From NCBI RefSeq assembly GCF_000175255.2, contig NC_017262.1, positions 1,350,001 through 1,382,000 on the forward strand: 32,000 nucleotides of DNA, written 5' to 3'. Within the stretch, counting starts at the first letter, position 1. The number at the start of each line of letters is the position of its first letter. A program made the translations under genes and the position numbers. The notes under the pieces were generated by a model. It worked only from the letters and a program-made list of their open reading frames with translations. It was not told the origin of the DNA and made no database searches. Below are positions 14,813 to 30,878 of this stretch, in pieces. The DNA is from Zymomonas mobilis subsp. mobilis ATCC 10988. GTDB taxonomy: Bacteria; Pseudomonadota; Alphaproteobacteria; Sphingomonadales; Sphingomonadaceae.

Positions 14813-15994
14813 ATGACAGAACAGGCCTTGGGTAAGGACAAAAGACAGGAAAAACAGGATATGCCTTTGGCTTTGTATATCCATTGGCCATTCTGCCTTG
14901 CAAAATGTCCTTATTGCGATTTTAACAGCCATGTTCGGCCAGATATTGATGCCGCCCTTTGGCAGGATGCTTTACTTTCTGACATGGCGCATGAAGCTGC
15001 CCTCACCCAAGGCCGCCGGCTCAGTTCGATCTTTTTCGGGGGTGGCACGCCTTCTCTGATGCCTCCCGAAACGGTAGCCGCGCTGATTGATGCCGCCACC
15101 CGCTATTGGCAACCGACCCCCGATATCGAAATCACACTTGAAGCCAACCCCTCTTCAGTTGAAGCTGACCGTTTCCAATCCTTGGCTTTGGCAGGGGTTA
15201 ATCGTCTATCTCTCGGTATTCAGGCCTTAGACGATACCAGCCTGCATTTTCTAGGAAGAATCCATAATGTCCAAGAAGCCTTATCCGCGCTCGATATCGC
15301 CCAGAAAAACTTCTCCCGTGTCAGCTTTGATCTGATCTATGGCCGCCCGAACCAATCCCTCAAAGATTGGGAAGAAGAATTAAAACAGGCCTTGGCTTTT
15401 GGCAGTGACCATCTGTCCCTTTACCAATTAACGATTGAAGAAGGCACCCGCTTTCACAGTCTGGTAAGACAAGGCCAATTTACCCCGATGGATGGCGACA
15501 AAGCCGCCGATCTTTTCGATCTCACCCGCGATATGACCAAAGCGGCAGGCATCCCCGCTTATGAAATATCCAACCATGCCCGCAAAAATTCGGAAAGCCG
15601 CCATAATCTCACCTATTGGCGTTATGGCGATTATATCGGCATCGGGGCAGGCGCCCATGGCAGAAGACTGAATAACGTCACTATCCGCCATAAAAAACCA
15701 GAAAACTGGCTGTCTGCAGTTCAAAAACAGCAACAGGGTATTCAGGAAGAAACCCCGCTATCACCCAAAGATCAGGCCATAGAAGCCGTCTTGATGGGCT
15801 TGCGCTTAACTGAAGGCATCGATCCCAAAAATATCCAAAAACGCACAGGCTTGGATATCTCCGAATTTCTCGATATCGCCGCTATTCAATATTACAGCGA
15901 CCAAGGATTACTCACCTTCAATAACGGCTTATTACGCATTACCGAGCAAGGCGCTCTATTAACAGATGCCTTAATAAGAGAAATTAGTTTATGA
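14813..15994 (+). CDS. hemW: Radical SAM family heme chaperone HemW (HemN-like, oxygen-independent coproporphyrinogen oxidase-like)
   Basis: Radical-SAM CxxxCxxC motif (CLAKCPYCDF), GGGTPS, 393 aa. An alternative start is at 14861 (MPLALYIHWPFC). Confidence 0.85.
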   Translation: MTEQALGKDKRQEKQDMPLALYIHWPFCLAKCPYCDFNSHVRPDIDAALWQDALLSDMAHEAALTQGRRLSSIFFGGGTPSLMPPETVAALIDAATRYWQPTPDIEITLEANPSSVEADRFQSLALAGVNRLSLGIQALDDTSLHFLGRIHNVQEALSALDIAQKNFSRVSFDLIYGRPNQSLKDWEEELKQALAFGSDHLSLYQLTIEEGTRFHSLVRQGQFTPMDGDKAADLFDLTRDMTKAAGIPAYEISNHARKNSESRHNLTYWRYGDYIGIGAGAHGRRLNNVTIRHKKPENWLSAVQKQQQGIQEETPLSPKDQAIEAVLMGLRLTEGIDPKNIQKRTGLDISEFLDIAAIQYYSDQGLLTFNNGLLRITEQGALLTDALIREISL

Positions 15995-16197
15995 TTTTAT
16001 TGATAATGATATTTCCTATTACTTTCATTATTCGAATGGTGATGATTAATATAATGGCTAACCATGATTATTTTACTTTCTTTACTACATTAATTAGCAC
16101 TACCGTTGGTGTAGGGGCAACTTATTTTGCTAACTATCTTTTTGAAAACGAAAAGCGAAAAAAATATTACAAGAAAAACTTAATAGAAAATCAATAA
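15991..16197 (+). CDS. Hypothetical small membrane protein (two predicted TM helices); probably the N-terminal part of a frameshift-split ~249-aa gene
   Basis: 68-aa ORF in roughly 20% GC DNA. Its ATG overlaps the hemW stop (ATGA). Hydrophobic segments: MILLIMIFPITFIIRMVMINIM and FFTTLISTTVGVGATYFANYLF. Confidence 0.55.
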   Translation: MILLIMIFPITFIIRMVMINIMANHDYFTFFTTLISTTVGVGATYFANYLFENEKRKKYYKKNLIENQ

Positions 16198-16403
16198 AAA
16201 TTATAAGAAATTTAAATATATATTATAATATTTCATTAGAACTATATAATAAATTTAATCAAAAAATTTACCAAAATCCACAAATAATACCTAAACGTAT
16301 TTTTTCTTTAATAAAAGATATAGAATTTTCTTTTAAAGAAAGCGATATATCAGATAATGAAATATATGATATTTTTCATATTACAGATTTTTGTACATCA
16401 AAT

Positions 16404-16739
16404 ATGTATGAAAATTTATTTCTTCAAATAAATAATAATTTTAATTATATTAAAAAATATATTAATAAACACGATTTATTTTGGAGAGATGCTGATCTGG
16501 ATTATTTTTCTCAAAATGAAAATGAATTTCATGAATTTATTCAAAAAAGAGAACCTTTAATATTAGAAACATTGGGATTAGCAGGAAAAATATCTCTTTT
16601 ATCTAAAGAAAATATGGAAGGCATAAAAAAATTCTTATCTGTTTTCGTCAACGGCGATAATTTCTATGCAAAAGATATAGAAATAAAATTACCAAAAATT
16701 GATGGCGGTTTCGAAACAATAAAAAGAACCGTCCCTTAA
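16404..16739 (+). CDS. Hypothetical protein, no recognisable family; the frame is open from 16146 with no start codon, so it is probably the C-terminal part of the split gene
   Basis: 111 aa counted from the first ATG. I translated the same frame upstream and found 86 consecutive sense codons (16146-16403) with no ATG, GTG, TTG or stop. That is very unlikely by chance in such AT-rich DNA. Confidence 0.55.
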   Translation: MYENLFLQINNNFNYIKKYINKHDLFWRDADLDYFSQNENEFHEFIQKREPLILETLGLAGKISLLSKENMEGIKKFLSVFVNGDNFYAKDIEIKLPKIDGGFETIKRTVP

Positions 16740-16745
16740 TAAAAC

Positions 16746-17456
16746 TCACATAATCGGAAAATGATTAAGCCGCCTCCGCCTTTCTTTCCAATCGGGCAAA
16801 AAGCGATCCATAAAGGCATAAAAACGGCGATTATGGGAAGCCTCCAACAGATGCACCATCTCATGCACCACAACATATTCAAGACATTCAGGCGGTTTTT
16901 TCACCAATTCGCTATTTAACCAGATACGCCCTGCCCTGACGTTACAACTACCCCACAGGGTTTTCATGGTCTTAACCCGCCAAACAGCGACCTCCACGCC
17001 GATAATTTTTTCCCAACGCGCCGCTAAATCGGGGATAGCCTGCTCTAATTGCGCTCGAAACCACAAGGCTAACCATTTCTCTTTCTTCTCGGCAGAAGGC
17101 GGAATCGCCGTATGCATTTGCAATCGAGAGGGTGACAGCGGCAGAATTTTCGATTGCAACGAACCTGCCACTATTTCCAAATGATATCTCTCACCCCATA
17201 ACCAATAGGCTTCTTCACCGCGATCTTGGGCTTTTATCTCGATTGCTTTTTGGTAGCGTTTTTGACGTTTTTCTATCCATGCCATGCGGCCAGCGAGAAT
17301 ATGACGAAGCGTCGCCTCTTTCATATTTCGGGGTGCCGAAACCACAACCGAACCATCATCAGGGGACAACCGGATATAAAGATTTTTAATCTCTTTCCGC
17401 AGGATATGGATCACAACCCCTGCAAGAATAATATCGCTCGCCGCTTCTTTTGCCAT
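16746..17456 (-). CDS. YgjP-like metal-dependent hydrolase (DUF45 / M48-type HExxH protein)
   Basis: 236 aa with the WGSC motif and the zinc-binding HEMVHLLEASH motif characteristic of DUF45. Confidence 0.75.
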   Translation of the reverse strand: MAKEAASDIILAGVVIHILRKEIKNLYIRLSPDDGSVVVSAPRNMKEATLRHILAGRMAWIEKRQKRYQKAIEIKAQDRGEEAYWLWGERYHLEIVAGSLQSKILPLSPSRLQMHTAIPPSAEKKEKWLALWFRAQLEQAIPDLAARWEKIIGVEVAVWRVKTMKTLWGSCNVRAGRIWLNSELVKKPPECLEYVVVHEMVHLLEASHNRRFYAFMDRFLPDWKERRRRLNHFPIM

Positions 17457-17798
17457 AGGCTCTTATCTAACACTCAAAAAAAATTTCACGCCCATTTCTC
17501 GGTATTTAAGACGCATTATCGAATAATCTTGGAGATAATTTGCGCTTTACCGCCTTTCCATCTCATCACAGCTTTTTTAGAAAGACAGCCGCTCTGGCCT
17601 TAGCCTAGGAAAGAAAAAATATATTTTAGAGTGTAAACAAAATATTGTTATCATTCACCCCCTCCATAACGATAAAAAGAGGATAAACATTCTTTGTGGA
17701 TCGACAGGTCAACTTTCAAAGTCTATGATGCCACCTCATCTTTAATCCCTCTTTATCTGTTATAAAAACGGATCGCTGATACTGAAAGTCCTTGTATA

Positions 17799-27947: not shown

Positions 27948-30317
27948 TCAGAATTGATAAGAAGTCTGGAGATAATAAAATCCGCCATTCACCCCGATCT
28001 GGCTGGCAGCCCCGTCATATTTGCCGGAACCATAATAGCCATTGGCGGCGGGAATACGGGTGGTATGGGCATTGAAAAGATTATTGGCGCCGATAGCGAC
28101 CCGTAATTTTTCAATAGGACGATATCCAATTTCTAAATTGGTAATCCAACGCGGATGATTATGAATGCGGTTAAAATCAGTCATCGAATAGGCATTCGGG
28201 CCCTGATACCAGGTCATTTCATCGGTAGTCTGGCCAAAACGCTGCTCATGCAGGCTGACATCCCATTTTTTGGAAAAAGATTCCCATCTTCCGCCAAAAG
28301 TAATCCGATTTTTCGGGGTGCTACTGGTCAAATAAGCCCGTGTCTGGGCATTCAAGGCTGACATCCCATTCGCCAGTTGGTTGACATGCCGAATGGTGGT
28401 CGCATTGATATTCAAGGCAATATCCCAGTCAACAATACCGAAATTCTCAAAACGACTATGGTAACTGGCGGTAAAATCCAAACCGCGGGTGCGGGTGCTG
28501 GCACCATTGGTAAAGAACCATGCCGATATATTTTGAGCCTCAAGCGTCGAAGCTACGGTCACTCCTTGTGCGTTCAAAGCCGCCAAAGCCGCCTCACCGG
28601 ATATACCGGGGCCACTGACAATCCGGTTACGGATAGCGATCTGATAGCTATCAAGGGTAAAATGAAGATTTTTCAAAGGTGAATAGACCAGTCCGGCCGT
28701 AATATTGGTAGCCTTTTCCGGTTTTAATGGCACCGCCCCCAATAGCTTGGCCGCAGCCGAATTAGCGCCCAAAGTGCCGCTGGCACTATCAGGCCCCACT
28801 GACAAGGTGCTAAAATATTCATTGGCAAGGCTTGGCGCTCTTGTCCCACTGCTAAAGGTCGCCCGAAGCGCGAATTGATCGGTAAAGTCATATCGGGTCG
28901 AAGCTTTACCATTCAGCGTGCTACCGAAATCGCTATAATATTCATAGCGTCCGGCTAAATCGACCTGCCAACGCTTTGTCAAATGGGCAGAAAGATCAAG
29001 ATAACCACTATAGACATTACGGGAATGAGATCCGGCAACAGCGGGTATAATACCGGTTCGGGCTTGGGTTCCGCCATATAAATAGGAGGCCGGATCACCC
29101 GCTCCGGTTTTATAGGTTTCATAACGATGGGCGAAACCGGCCGCCACGGTCAGCGGGCTATAGATCATGGGCAAAGCCAATTCTTTGCTCAGATCAAGGG
29201 TATTATTCAGTTGAGTGGTCGAATAATTATTCAGATGCACCGATAAAGGGGTCGAACCCGTTGCGGCATAAAGGCCAAGATTGGCGGTTTTATCGAGGTC
29301 ATTCCGAATGAAATTGCCGCCATAGGTGGAATTGACATCCCAATGGATTCCCAAGGCATTATCACCACGCAACCCAAGAGAAGCCGAAAAGTCGTTTTCA
29401 GACAATTTTTGTATCGGCATAAAGCCATCAGGATAGGCTTCGGGAAAACGATCAGCCGTTCTATAGACCTGATTAACCTCACTATTGCGATGCGAATAGC
29501 TATCAGTCGTATAAATTTCGATGCCATTTCCAAAATCATAACCGGCATTGATCGCCAGATTATAGCGGGTCGCCATCGGATCACCGACAACTTTCAAACT
29601 ATGGCGCTGGGTTCGGCTATCGATACCATCACGGCTGGTATGATTTTGATGACGAAAATCGAAGGCAACATCAAAGAAACCGGAATGACCAATTTTGAAT
29701 CCCTTATTAAAACCGGCCTGTCCGACCAATCCATCTCCGGCATAGGTCTGTCCGATCTGACTTCTGGCACTGCCACCATGATTGTCAGATTTCAAAATGA
29801 TATTGACGACTCCGGCAATGGCATCGGAACCATATTGGGCAGCGGCGCCATCTTTCAAAACCTCAATATGGTCAATCAATTCGGGGGCAATCAAATCAAG
29901 ATCGGTTGGCGTAGCCGCATCGGCAAAACCATCAATATAGAGGAAAGAGCTATTATGACGGCGCTTGCCATTGACCAAAACCAAGGTCTGATTTGGATTA
30001 AGACCCCGTAAACTGACAAAATTGGTAGGTGCGGCAACAAATTGCCCGACAGCCGGTTGCGTAATAGAAGGCACTAATTGCGCCAAAGCCGAGGTAACAT
30101 TCGTCTGGCCGGTTTCCAGCAATTCTCGATTATTCAAAACTTCAATAGGGGAAAGACTATCCCTTATTTTCTTATGCGTTTCACGGGTGCCGGTAACGAT
30201 AATGGCATCATTATTAGAAGTATTACTAACAGTATCAGTCGCGGCTTCTACCGGATATTGTAAGAAAAACCATGAAAAGGAAAAAAGAAAACCTCCTTTT
30301 TTAATAAAATTTTTCAT
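27948..30317 (-). CDS. TonB-dependent outer-membrane receptor
   Basis: 789 aa with a signal peptide, a TonB-box-like DAIIVTG, a plug domain, and a beta-barrel with a C-terminal aromatic residue (…YYLQTSYQF). Confidence 0.9.
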   Translation of the reverse strand: MKNFIKKGGFLFSFSWFFLQYPVEAATDTVSNTSNNDAIIVTGTRETHKKIRDSLSPIEVLNNRELLETGQTNVTSALAQLVPSITQPAVGQFVAAPTNFVSLRGLNPNQTLVLVNGKRRHNSSFLYIDGFADAATPTDLDLIAPELIDHIEVLKDGAAAQYGSDAIAGVVNIILKSDNHGGSARSQIGQTYAGDGLVGQAGFNKGFKIGHSGFFDVAFDFRHQNHTSRDGIDSRTQRHSLKVVGDPMATRYNLAINAGYDFGNGIEIYTTDSYSHRNSEVNQVYRTADRFPEAYPDGFMPIQKLSENDFSASLGLRGDNALGIHWDVNSTYGGNFIRNDLDKTANLGLYAATGSTPLSVHLNNYSTTQLNNTLDLSKELALPMIYSPLTVAAGFAHRYETYKTGAGDPASYLYGGTQARTGIIPAVAGSHSRNVYSGYLDLSAHLTKRWQVDLAGRYEYYSDFGSTLNGKASTRYDFTDQFALRATFSSGTRAPSLANEYFSTLSVGPDSASGTLGANSAAAKLLGAVPLKPEKATNITAGLVYSPLKNLHFTLDSYQIAIRNRIVSGPGISGEAALAALNAQGVTVASTLEAQNISAWFFTNGASTRTRGLDFTASYHSRFENFGIVDWDIALNINATTIRHVNQLANGMSALNAQTRAYLTSSTPKNRITFGGRWESFSKKWDVSLHEQRFGQTTDEMTWYQGPNAYSMTDFNRIHNHPRWITNLEIGYRPIEKLRVAIGANNLFNAHTTRIPAANGYYGSGKYDGAASQIGVNGGFYYLQTSYQF

Positions 30318-30339: not shown

Positions 30340-30720
30340 ATAATTTTGCTTCTCCTCGATAATTTTTAATATAATTATTTTATTTAATGATAAAATTTAA
30401 ATATAATTTATGGGTATAAAGTATTTATTTATTGGATATAAATTATTAAATAATGTTATATTATATTTCATCTTTTGAAAAATAAAGAGATCGACTATAC
30501 AATAAAGGATAAAAAAGGATGCCATCACCCTAAATTAAAAATAAAAAACTAATTAAAATTAAAATAATTAAACAAATAAAAAAATAAAACAAAATCTATT
30601 TTACAGTAATTTTAAAAATAAAAAATTAACTTTATTTGGAATTAAGAGTTTTTTTGAAAAAGACCTATTCAATAACCTAAAATTTTCAGATTATTTTCAT
30701 CTAAAAAATATACCGCCGTT
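30340..30720. other. Extremely AT-rich tract: candidate DNA-unwinding element of oriC and/or promoter region of the TonB-dependent receptor
   Basis: ~380 bp made almost entirely of A/T. It lies directly beside the DnaA-box cluster. It contains a 14-mer direct repeat, ttaaaaataaaaaa, at 30535-30548 and 30612-30625. Confidence 0.5.
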
Positions 30721-30878
30721 AACAAGAGACAAATCCACAGACAGCTTTCCCTTATCGAGTCGCTTCTTTCGAGTCGGATAGCGACGACTCGACAGTTATT
30801 TATCCTTCATTCAGCCCTATGGAACGCCCTGAGGTGCTCAATTTCATCCTCTTTCGGAAAGAAAAAAGGACAGCCCTT

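What the first reader, a model, noticed from the sequence alone, without database searches (positions are those of the whole stretch)
16146..16197. A7 tract in exact X_XXY_YYZ phase links the two island ORFs: programmed -1 frameshift, phase-variable switch, or a very recent pseudogene
- ORF1 (15991..16197) reads ...cgA AAA AAA tat... across an A7 run at 16158-16164.
- The -1 frame is open from 16146 to 16739 and has no possible start codon before 16404 (86 sense codons).
- With stop codons expected at roughly 9% of codons in DNA this AT-rich, 86 stop-free codons occur by chance at about 3 in 10,000.
- The downstream frame is therefore almost certainly coding and must be reached from ORF1.
- Tandem tRNA-Lys slippage on A_AAA_AAA, or an A8 allele, gives one 249-aa protein: 58 aa from ORF1 plus 191 aa.
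Basis: seen in the sequence. Interest (0 to 1): 0.7.

Follow-up and report, generated by a model that had tools for sequence, protein, structure and literature searches.

The report
Frameshifted orphan membrane-protein gene in Zymomonas
The two small "island ORFs" are the halves of one roughly 228-residue membrane-anchored gene of unknown function, broken by a one-base deletion in this Zymomonas mobilis lineage; it is most likely an ordinary recent pseudogene, not a programmed frameshift.

Summary
There is an A7 run at 16158-16164, read cgA AAA AAA in ORF1. The -1 frame is open from 16146 to 16739 with no start codon before 16404.

The window matches Z. mobilis ATCC 10988 (Zmob_1187 is ORF1). 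Homologues in other Zymomonas sit at the same site, between the hemW-like and ygjP-like genes. They are single intact ORFs of 207-243 aa that span both window ORFs, so this is one gene with a frameshift. They start at the Met equivalent to ATG 16054, not 15991.

- **No programmed signal.** There is no downstream RNA structure or nearby Shine-Dalgarno stimulator, and no homologue shares the site. In-phase slippery heptamers and A7-A8 runs are common in intact alleles.
- **No length variation.** All five independent datasets of this lineage carry A7, and no repaired protein is on record.
- **Uncertain lesion site.** The missing base may be in GAAAAC at 16145-16148 rather than in the A7 run.
- **Other breaks.** Two other alleles are independently frameshifted, one at an A9 run and one at no repeat.

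Best reading: a recent lineage-specific pseudogene, with at most about 1% leaky read-through.

The more interesting feature is the gene itself. It is AT-rich (22-34% GC) and hypervariable, belongs to no described family, and its distant relatives lie next to mobile-element and defence genes.

The parts
14813..15994 (+). Upstream conserved gene (radical SAM / HemN_C, hemW-like). Its TGA stop overlaps the ATG at 15991.
   Evidence: 393-aa ORF. The flank is 98% identical to other Z. mobilis up to 16001.
15991..16053 (+). The 21-codon N-terminal extension of annotated ORF1. It is probably not coding and is AT-rich intergenic DNA.
   Evidence: ATG 15991 is created by TAA>TGA in the upstream gene's stop. 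The homologous stretch is not alignable or open in L001/L005. All homologues start at the Met equal to 16054.
16054..16164 (+). 5' part of the gene in the ORF1 frame: start ATG 16054 and 37 codons (MANHDYFTFFTTLISTTVGVGATYFANYLFENEKRKK).
   Evidence: Aligns to residues 1-40 of P0001, P0007, P0008 and P0009.
16069..16143 (+). Predicted single transmembrane helix (YFTFFTTLISTTVGVGATYFANYLF), followed by a Lys/Arg-rich stretch. This implies that the C-terminal domain is cytoplasmic (positive-inside rule; inference).
   Evidence: Read from the sequence. The hydrophobic block is conserved in the family.
16145..16148 (+). A4 in GAAAAC: the alternative site of the one-base deletion. The alleles in L001 and L005 have GAAAAAC (GAA AAA CGn = E K R) here.
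   Evidence: Restoring this A gives ...NYLFEKRKAKKILQEK..., which aligns without a gap to the family motif ...NFL[AS]EKRRIK.
16146..16194 (+). Overlap zone in which both frames are open. Any lesion or recoding event must lie here.
   Evidence: The -1 frame stop is at 16143-16145 and the 0-frame stop at 16195-16197.
16158..16164 (+). The A7 run, in phase as A_AAA_AAA. It is the most mutable site in the overlap zone and the only canonical slippery heptamer there.
   Evidence: It is identical (A7) in L009-L013.
16195..16197 (+). Premature TAA stop of the 0 frame. The truncated product is 47 aa from 16054, or 68 aa from 15991.
16164..16739 (+). 3' part of the gene in the -1 frame: 191 codons plus the stop. 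It is predicted to form a helical bundle with a C-terminal beta hairpin.
   Evidence: translation. It is homologous to the rest of P0001-P0010. AlphaFold2 gives pLDDT 84.8 and pTM 0.82.
16404..16739 (+). Annotated ORF2 (111 aa, AEH63017.1 / WP_014500913.1). It is an annotation artefact of the frameshift and begins inside predicted helix 76-107.
16001..16609 (+). Hypervariable AT-rich cassette (about 21% GC). It has no nucleotide match to other Z. mobilis alleles, although the flanks are 98% identical.
16610..16739 (+). Conserved 3' end of the gene (...FLSVFVNGDNFYAKDIEIKLPKIDGGFETIKRTVP), shared by all alleles.
16625..16631 (+). A second A7 run, also in A_AAA_AAA phase (ATA AAA AAA TTC). It lies inside the conserved 3' end and is also present in the intact allele of L001.
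16746..17456 (-). Convergent conserved neighbour (YgjP-like/SprT-like metallopeptidase family). Its stop is 6 nt from the stop of the frameshifted gene.

Best explanation
Window 16054-16739 is a single gene for a protein of about 228 aa. The protein has a short N-terminus, one transmembrane helix, a Lys/Arg/Glu-rich linker, a variable helical-bundle domain and a conserved C-terminal beta hairpin.

It belongs to an uncharacterised family found almost only in Zymomonas. In that genus the gene occupies a fixed site between the hemW-like and ygjP-like genes and occurs as many very different AT-rich alleles.

In the ATCC 10988 lineage the gene has lost one base in the A-rich linker. The loss was either A8>A7 at 16158-16164 or A5>A4 at 16145-16148. 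Translation therefore stops at 16195 after 47 residues. The remaining 191 codons are left without a start, and annotators rescue part of them as a separate 111-aa 'ORF2'.

The gene is a recent, lineage-specific frameshift pseudogene. Spontaneous -1 ribosomal slippage or RNA-polymerase slippage on the A7 run may yield traces of full-length protein, on the order of 1% or less. Nothing indicates that this is programmed or selected.

Shown here: one gene, the frameshift, its fixation in the lineage, and the lack of recoding signals. Inferred: loss of function, membrane topology and the level of leakiness.
For: 1. **One gene.** P0001-P0004, P0007, P0009, P0010 and P0015 are single ORFs of 207-243 aa. 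They align to ORF1 before the run and to the -1 frame after it. Every allele whose contig could be fetched sits at the same locus (P0009 and P0015 were not located).
2. **The window is the ATCC 10988 lineage.** ORF1 is Zmob_1187 (AEH63016.1) and ORF2 is AEH63017.1.
3. **The frameshift is real and fixed.** One NCBI assembly (GCA_006716005.1), three independent SRA runs and the window all have A7. GCA_006716005.1 differs from the window at another run (17476-17483, A7 against A8), so the datasets are not copies of each other.
4. **No intact form is on record.** Six start variants of the A8-repaired protein are absent from about 15 billion proteins. The profile search found no near-identical intact allele.
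5. **No recoding signals.**
   - The 60 nt downstream do not fold at all; 100 nt fold to -4.6 kcal/mol with z = 0.06.
   - The nearest G-rich stretch is about 40 nt upstream.
   - The site is not conserved in any allele.
   - In E. coli, heptamers without stimulators gave only 2-10 times a background of 0.055% (PMC4066793).
   - Efficient transcriptional slippage is documented for runs of 9 A/T (PMC5009743).
6. **The motif is background.** Intact alleles contain A7-A8 runs and 2-7 in-phase slippery heptamers each.
7. **The gene is repeatedly lost.** L014 carries a -1 frameshift with no homopolymer or slippery heptamer. L015 and L016 carry one at an A9 run.
8. **ORF2 alone is unlikely to fold.** It starts inside helix 76-107 of a confident model.
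Against: - The 191 downstream codons carry no second lesion, although 6.1% of possible substitutions would create a stop. This fits a very recent event, but it also fits continued selection through low-level recoding.
- The AlphaFold2 model of the window's own -1-frame sequence is confident, so the coding information is intact.
- A second allele (L015/L016) is frameshifted at an A9 run and also needs +1 A. This hints at a recurrent and possibly reversible mechanism at A runs.
- All datasets may derive from one strain held in different culture collections. If so, fixation in the lineage says little about natural populations.
- No expression data could be examined.
Confidence: 0.72

Rival explanations
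1. Phase-variable (contingency) gene. The A run expands and contracts during replication, switching the membrane protein ON (A8) and OFF (A7). All sequenced cultures happen to be OFF.
For: - The homopolymer lies in the 5' part of a hypervariable accessory gene.
- The downstream frame is intact.
- Another allele is OFF at an A9 run and needs the same +1 A.
- A nearby A8/A7 difference between two assemblies of the lineage shows that such runs can differ, or be misread, on this time scale.
Against: - Five datasets all show A7, and no ON protein is on record.
- The run is not conserved in other alleles, whose linkers have A5-A6.
- A7 is short for a contingency homopolymer (general knowledge).
- The L014 allele is broken at a non-repeat site, which argues for plain decay.
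- The lesion may not be in the A7 run at all.
Confidence: 0.1
2. Leaky pseudogene rescued by polymerase or ribosome infidelity. RNA polymerase adds an A on the A7 run, or ribosomes slip -1 on A_AAA_AAA. This gives a small but physiologically sufficient amount of full-length protein, as described for poly(A)-tract frameshifts in AT-rich endosymbionts.
For: - The heptamer is in phase, and both routes give the same product...EKRKKILQEK....
- The downstream ORF is intact.
- A weak AU hairpin (16138-16155) ends 2 nt before the run.
- The review PMC5009743 describes 'savior' indels with low-level compensatory frameshifting, and slippage in Buchnera and Blochmannia.
Against: - The run has 7 A, whereas efficient slippage is documented for 9.
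- Heptamers without stimulators give well under 1%.
- The hairpin is not significant (z = -1.2).
- No conservation can be tested because this allele exists in one lineage only.
Confidence: 0.12
3. Programmed -1 ribosomal frameshifting. The gene is designed to make a 47/68-aa membrane peptide and, at a set ratio, the full-length protein.
For: There is an exact X_XXY_YYZ heptamer and a long start-less -1 ORF.
Against: - There is no downstream structure and no upstream Shine-Dalgarno-like sequence.
- Homologues are unsplit single ORFs without this site.
- The same motif occurs in phase elsewhere in this gene and in intact alleles.
- Two other alleles are split at unrelated positions.
Confidence: 0.03
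4. Sequencing or assembly error in a homopolymer. The real genome would have A8 and an intact gene.
For: Homopolymer miscalls are common. One A8/A7 discrepancy exists between assemblies at 17476-17483.
Against: The finished genome, a second NCBI assembly and three separately assembled SRA runs all show A7.
Confidence: 0.02

Closest known systems
Homopolymer-associated frameshift pseudogenes in bacterial accessory genes
   Same: A one-base deletion lies in an A-rich stretch. Intact single-ORF orthologues sit at the same locus, and the lesion is confined to one lineage. Annotators split the gene into two 'hypothetical proteins'.
   Different: The downstream part is still free of any second lesion. 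The affected gene belongs to an unusual hypervariable orphan family.
dnaX and IS1/IS3-family programmed -1 frameshift sites (A_AAA_AAG, A_AAA_AAC)
   Same: An A-rich X_XXY_YYZ heptamer is in phase with tandem Lys codons, and the -1 frame carries the rest of the protein.
   Different: There is no Shine-Dalgarno or hairpin/pseudoknot stimulator. The site is not conserved among homologues, and the homologues are unsplit. AAA_AAA is not among the most efficient motifs reported for E. coli, which end in A_AAG (PMC4066793).
Transcriptional-slippage rescue of poly(A)-tract frameshifts (Buchnera/Blochmannia; Thermus dnaX run of nine)
   Same: An AT-rich gene is frameshifted at an A run, and adding one A to the mRNA would restore the frame.
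   Different: The run is only 7 long here. It is 9 long in the unrelated L015 allele, which fits this model better.
Simple-sequence contingency loci (phase-variable genes of Haemophilus, Neisseria, Campylobacter, Helicobacter)
   Same: A homopolymer lies near the 5' end of a hypervariable non-core gene.
   Different: No length polymorphism was seen. The run is short and allele-specific. I know of no precedent in Zymomonas (from memory; not searched).
Single-gene abortive-infection or superinfection-exclusion proteins (analogy for the gene's function only)
   Same: The gene is small and membrane-anchored, much more AT-rich than its host, and highly polymorphic. Distant relatives lie next to restriction-modification, toxin-antitoxin, integrase and resolvase genes.
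   Different: There is no sequence or fold similarity to any PADLOC, Pfam, PHROG, NCBIfam, PDB or BFVD entry. The function is untested.

Membership tests
Programmed -1 ribosomal frameshift site | Slippery heptamer X_XXY_YYZ in the 0-frame phase | tested here: met
   cgA AAA AAA at 16158-16164. However, intact alleles have 2-7 such heptamers each.
Programmed -1 ribosomal frameshift site | Stimulatory element: a downstream hairpin or pseudoknot 5-9 nt after the heptamer, and/or a Shine-Dalgarno-like sequence about 10-14 nt upstream | tested here: not met
   The minimum free energy is 0 kcal/mol for 43 and 60 nt downstream; 100 nt give z = 0.06. No GGAGG-like sequence lies within 35 nt upstream.
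Programmed -1 ribosomal frameshift site | The site and the two-frame organisation are conserved among homologues | tested here: not met
   All full-length homologues are single ORFs, and their linker DNA lacks the heptamer.
Programmed -1 ribosomal frameshift site | Measured frameshift efficiency above background | not testable with these tools
   This needs a reporter assay or proteomics.
Phase-variable simple-sequence contingency locus | A repeat tract inside or just upstream of the ORF whose length sets the reading frame | tested here: met
   A7 gives OFF and A8 would give ON.
Phase-variable simple-sequence contingency locus | Tract-length polymorphism among closely related isolates or within cultures | tested here: not met
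   A7 appears in all five datasets, and no ON protein is on record. Within-culture heterogeneity could not be examined.
Phase-variable simple-sequence contingency locus | The tract is maintained across alleles or orthologues | tested here: not met
   Other alleles have at most A5-A6 at this position.
Transcriptional-slippage recoding | A homopolymeric A/T run long enough for efficient RNA-polymerase slippage (about 9 or more) | tested here: not met
   The window has A7, against the 9 A/T benchmark in PMC5009743. The L015/L016 allele does have A9.
Frameshift pseudogene | Intact single-ORF orthologues at the syntenic position | tested here: met
Frameshift pseudogene | The lesion is lineage-specific and truncates the product before its main domain | tested here: met
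   It occurs only in the ATCC 10988 lineage. The stop comes after 47 aa, just past the transmembrane helix.
Frameshift pseudogene | Loss of the full-length product | not testable with these tools
   No expression or proteome data for this strain could be examined.
Known anti-phage defence, Pfam, PHROG or NCBIfam families (for the encoded protein) | A significant profile or fold match | tested here: not met
   Nothing reached any curated cut-off. No PDB or BFVD fold match had E < 0.1.

The most novel reading that the evidence does not exclude
The locus between the hemW-like and ygjP-like genes of Zymomonas holds a previously undescribed, diversifying, membrane-anchored accessory gene, possibly an abortive-infection or exclusion type defence. 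Its A runs would act as reversible ON/OFF switches, or would be read through by polymerase slippage. The A7 frameshift here and the A9 frameshift in L015 would then be regulated OFF or low states rather than dead genes.
Probability: 0.1. Interest if true: 0.6.

Novelty: new member of a known kind. Interest (0 to 1): 0.25.

Why it matters
**For the finding as stated: little.**
- It corrects the annotation of Zmob_1187 and its neighbour AEH63017.1, which are one frameshifted gene and not two hypothetical proteins.
- It shows that an exact-phase A_AAA_AAA in very AT-rich coding DNA is not evidence of recoding.

**Beyond the finding: modest value.** The work exposes a hypervariable, AT-rich orphan gene at a fixed chromosomal site in an industrial ethanologen.
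- At least six alleles share only 20-50% identity, between flanks that are 98% identical.
- The gene has been disrupted independently in three lineages.
- Its distant relatives sit among restriction-modification, toxin-antitoxin and recombinase genes.
- If it proves to be a phage-exclusion or similar determinant, allele and ON/OFF state could matter for phage robustness of production strains.

Tried and rejected
- **Public collection scans.** A profile-derived pattern and a conserved 3'-end DNA pattern found nothing in genome contigs. An A-run-tolerant pattern and the 3'-end pattern found nothing in metagenome contigs. No extra strains could be recruited this way.
- **Function by sequence.** Pfam, PADLOC, PHROGs and NCBIfam, run on the window protein and on 11 family members, gave nothing above the cut-offs. 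The PDB sequence profile also gave nothing.
- **Plasmid and phage collections.** tblastn of P0017 against plasmids and of P0001 against phages found no match.
- **P0009.** Its encoding contig could not be found.
- **Zymomonas comparative-genomics paper.** PMC5919020 does not mention the locus.
- **ORF1 and ORF2 as two genuine genes.** Rejected because ORF2 begins inside a predicted helix and no homologue is organised in this way.
- **ATG 15991 as the start.** Rejected because it is not conserved.
- **Caveat on the first protein search.** One search did not list the window's own ORF2 (P0005), although that protein is in the collection and was listed. Negative results from that search alone are therefore weak.

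Full report
**1. The observation**

A run of seven A occupies 16158-16164. ORF1 (15991-16197, 68 aa) reads CGA AAA AAA TAT across it, so the heptamer A_AAA_AAA is in X_XXY_YYZ phase.

The -1 frame has a TGA at 16143-16145. It is then open for 198 codons, to the TAA at 16737-16739. Its first ATG/GTG/TTG is at 16404.

The stretch 16001-16609 is 42% A, 37% T, 10% G and 10% C, which gives an expected stop frequency of 9.9% per codon.
- The chance of 86 open codons is 1.3e-4.
- The chance of 198 open codons is 1e-9.
- None of 20,000 shuffles of the segment was open.

The island is by far the most AT-rich part of the window, at 16-26% GC against about 50% in the flanks.

**2. What it is: one gene**

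A search with the conceptual fusion found four proteins of 231-243 aa that cover 92% of it as single ORFs. A full HMMER scan of 1.84 billion representatives and a second profile search raised the family to about a dozen sequences.
- They include Za10_1166 of strain NCIMB 11163 and several other Z. mobilis proteins. One of them (P0007) was seen on 65 contigs.
- All full-length members align to ORF1 before the A run and to the -1 frame after it.
- Every member whose contig could be fetched sits at the same place: rph, the Ham1-like gene, the hemW-like gene, X, the ygjP-like gene (minus strand), cysJ.

The two window ORFs are therefore the halves of one gene.

Exact look-up identifies them as AEH63016.1 (Zmob_1187) and AEH63017.1 / WP_014500913.1 of Z. 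mobilis subsp. mobilis ATCC 10988.

**3. The start codon**

All homologues begin MA[DEN]... at the Met that corresponds to window ATG 16054. The ATG at 15991 exists only because the upstream gene's stop is TGA in this lineage and TAA in the other alleles compared. The 63 nt after it do not align to the other alleles.

The restored protein would therefore be about 228 aa: 37 codons from 16054-16164 plus 191 codons from 16164-16736.

**4. Anatomy of the protein**

- Residues 6-30 (YFTFFTTLISTTVGVGATYFANYLF) form a single hydrophobic helix.
- A Lys/Arg/Glu-rich linker follows. The family consensus is [AS]EKRRIKxDExKExRAEQKRLNKKS.
- By the positive-inside rule the large C-terminal part is cytoplasmic. 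This is an inference.
- AlphaFold2 on the window's own -1-frame sequence, with an 11-sequence alignment, gives a confident model (pLDDT 84.8, pTM 0.82). It has three long helices of about 30 residues plus shorter ones, and a C-terminal beta hairpin.
- Annotated ORF2 would begin at residue 81 of that model, inside helix 76-107. It would lack the membrane anchor and the first long helix.
- No Pfam, PADLOC, PHROG, NCBIfam, PDB or BFVD entry resembles the family.

**5. Is the frameshift real, and does the run vary?**

Five independent sources all read GCGAAAAAAATAT, with A7:
- the window itself;
- NCBI assembly GCA_006716005.1 (loci L009 and L011);
- Logan assemblies of SRR9435042, SRR066225 and SRR3925454.

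Over 6.3 kb the window and GCA_006716005.1 differ at one position only. That position is another A run, A8 against A7 at 17476-17483, in the spacer between the ygjP-like gene and cysJ. The datasets are therefore not copies of one another, and run-length differences are detectable in them. None occurs at 16158-16164.

Six start-codon variants of the A8-repaired protein are absent from the collection of about 15 billion proteins. The profile search returned no near-identical intact allele. A sequencing error is excluded, and phase variation gains no support.

**6. Where exactly is the lesion?**

The two frames overlap only between 16146 and 16194. The window is 22 nt (21 + 1) shorter than the L001 and L005 alleles in this linker. 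Two single-base repairs are compatible with the alignments.
- **A8 at 16158-16164** gives ...NYLFENEKRKKILQEK.... The EKRKKI stretch then resembles the family's EKRRIK, but a two-residue insertion is needed.
- **A5 at 16145-16148** restores GAA AAA CGA, exactly as in L001 and L005. It gives ...NYLFEKRKAKKILQEK..., which aligns to ...NFL[AS]EKRRIK without a gap.

A longer run is the more mutable site a priori, while the alignment slightly favours the shorter one. I cannot decide between them.

**7. Is recoding programmed?**

- The 43 and 60 nt after the heptamer have a minimum free energy of 0 kcal/mol. One hundred nt fold to -4.6 kcal/mol, no better than shuffles (z = 0.06).
- The only G-rich stretch upstream lies about 40 nt away.
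- A 7-bp AU-rich hairpin (16138-16155) ends 2 nt before the run, but it is weak and not significant (z = -1.2).
- In E. coli, heptamers without stimulators gave only 2-10 times a 0.055% background. AAAAAAA is avoided in all frames, plausibly because of transcriptional slippage or indel mutation (PMC4066793).
- Efficient RNA-polymerase slippage is documented for runs of nine A or T (PMC5009743).
- The motif is not conserved. Other alleles have A5-A6 in the linker.
- The motif is background in this family.
  - A second in-phase A_AAA_AAA lies at 16625-16631 in the conserved 3' end, where shifting would truncate the protein.
  - Intact alleles carry 2-7 in-phase slippery heptamers, and runs up to A8, without any frame change.

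Programmed frameshifting is therefore very unlikely. Unselected leakiness of about 1% or less cannot be excluded.

**8. Other alleles are broken too**

- In L014 (SRR10982258) a further allele is split into 139-aa and 59-aa ORFs by a -1 frameshift. The roughly 27-nt overlap zone contains no homopolymer and no slippery heptamer.
- In L015 (MAG GCA_020216885.1) and L016 (SRR12997673) a P0003-like allele is frameshifted at an A9 run. The intact alleles read GAAAAGGAATCTTTT at that position. This allele also needs +1 A.
- Three independent disruptions in about nine lineages indicate a dispensable gene that decays repeatedly.
- The A9 case is long enough for appreciable transcriptional slippage. 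It keeps a small door open for the 'leaky' or 'switch' readings.

**9. The locus is the more unusual thing**

Flanking DNA of the window and of the common Z. mobilis allele is 98% identical up to 16001 and again from 16609. Between these points there is no nucleotide match.

At least six allele classes occupy the site in Z. mobilis:
- the window allele;
- P0002, P0003 and P0004;
- P0007 and P0015;
- P0009;
- P0010;
- P0012 plus P0011.

P0001 comes from a more distant, Zymomonas-like organism whose flanks are about 72% identical. The classes share 20-50% identity in the middle and nearly identical N- and C-termini. All alleles examined at the DNA level are 22-34% GC, in a 50% GC context.

Three distant relatives (P0014, P0016, P0017) had a first-pass E-value of 9e-5 over the full length. 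Two of them could be placed on contigs.
- They are likewise 27% GC in contigs of 51-56% GC.
- P0017 lies beside a resolvase, a ParA/RHH pair and a type II restriction-modification system.
- P0014 lies beside an integrase and a PemK/MazE pair.

This pattern suggests a horizontally exchanged accessory gene under diversifying selection, perhaps a phage-exclusion or abortive-infection type. That reading is analogy only. No defence-family model matches.

**10. Verdict**

| Reading | Probability |
|---|---|
| Recent, lineage-specific frameshift pseudogene of an uncharacterised, hypervariable membrane-protein gene | about 0.7 |
| Leaky rescue by slippage | 0.12 |
| Phase variation | 0.10 |
| Programmed -1 frameshifting | 0.03 |
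| Sequencing artefact | 0.02 |

Its conclusion of one gene is right, and of its three options the least exciting one is best supported. As a recoding candidate the interest is low. The orphan hypervariable locus deserves a note.

Noticed in passing
window 16001-16609 versus L001, L005, L014, L015, L017 and L018: The site between the hemW-like and ygjP-like genes holds a replaceable AT-rich cassette. At least six allele classes share 20-50% protein identity between flanks that are 98% identical. The N-terminal transmembrane segment and the last 43 residues or so are conserved.
   Followed up: partly
L015 2913-2921 and L016 584-592: A P0003-like allele in a Zymomonas MAG is frameshifted at an A9 run, where intact alleles read GAAAAGGAATC. 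It needs +1 A, the same polarity as in the window.
   Followed up: yes
L014 1977-2680: Another allele is split into 139-aa and 59-aa ORFs by a -1 frameshift. The context has no homopolymer and no slippery heptamer.
   Followed up: yes
window 17476-17483: This intergenic A8 run, between the ygjP-like gene and cysJ, is A7 in GCA_006716005.1. It is the only difference between the two over 6.3 kb. It is either real run-length variation or a homopolymer miscall.
   Followed up: partly
window 15989-15994: The upstream gene's stop is TGA here and TAA in the other alleles compared. This change creates the ATGA overlap and the spurious ATG that annotators used for ORF1.
   Followed up: yes
window 16737-16748: The frameshifted gene and the convergent ygjP-like gene end 6 nt apart. 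No terminator-like hairpin lies between them. The only terminator-like match (16645-16657) is inside the coding region.
   Followed up: no
L019-L021 and L022: Distant relatives of the family (P0017, P0014) are 27% GC genes in 51-56% GC contigs. They lie next to a resolvase, ParA/RHH, a type II restriction-modification system (MvaI_BcnI plus a methylase), an integrase and PemK/MazE.
   Followed up: partly
window 30401-30800: A second strongly AT-rich stretch (23% GC, with A7 and T7 runs at 30578 and 30649) has no ORF of 60 aa or more. It lies upstream of a large 789-aa ORF on the minus strand (27948-30317) that looks like an outer-membrane receptor; that gene was not analysed further.
   Followed up: no
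The first word-indexed protein search did not list the window's own ORF2 protein (P0005). That protein is in the collection, and the later profile search did list it. Negative results from the first search should be read with care.
   Followed up: no
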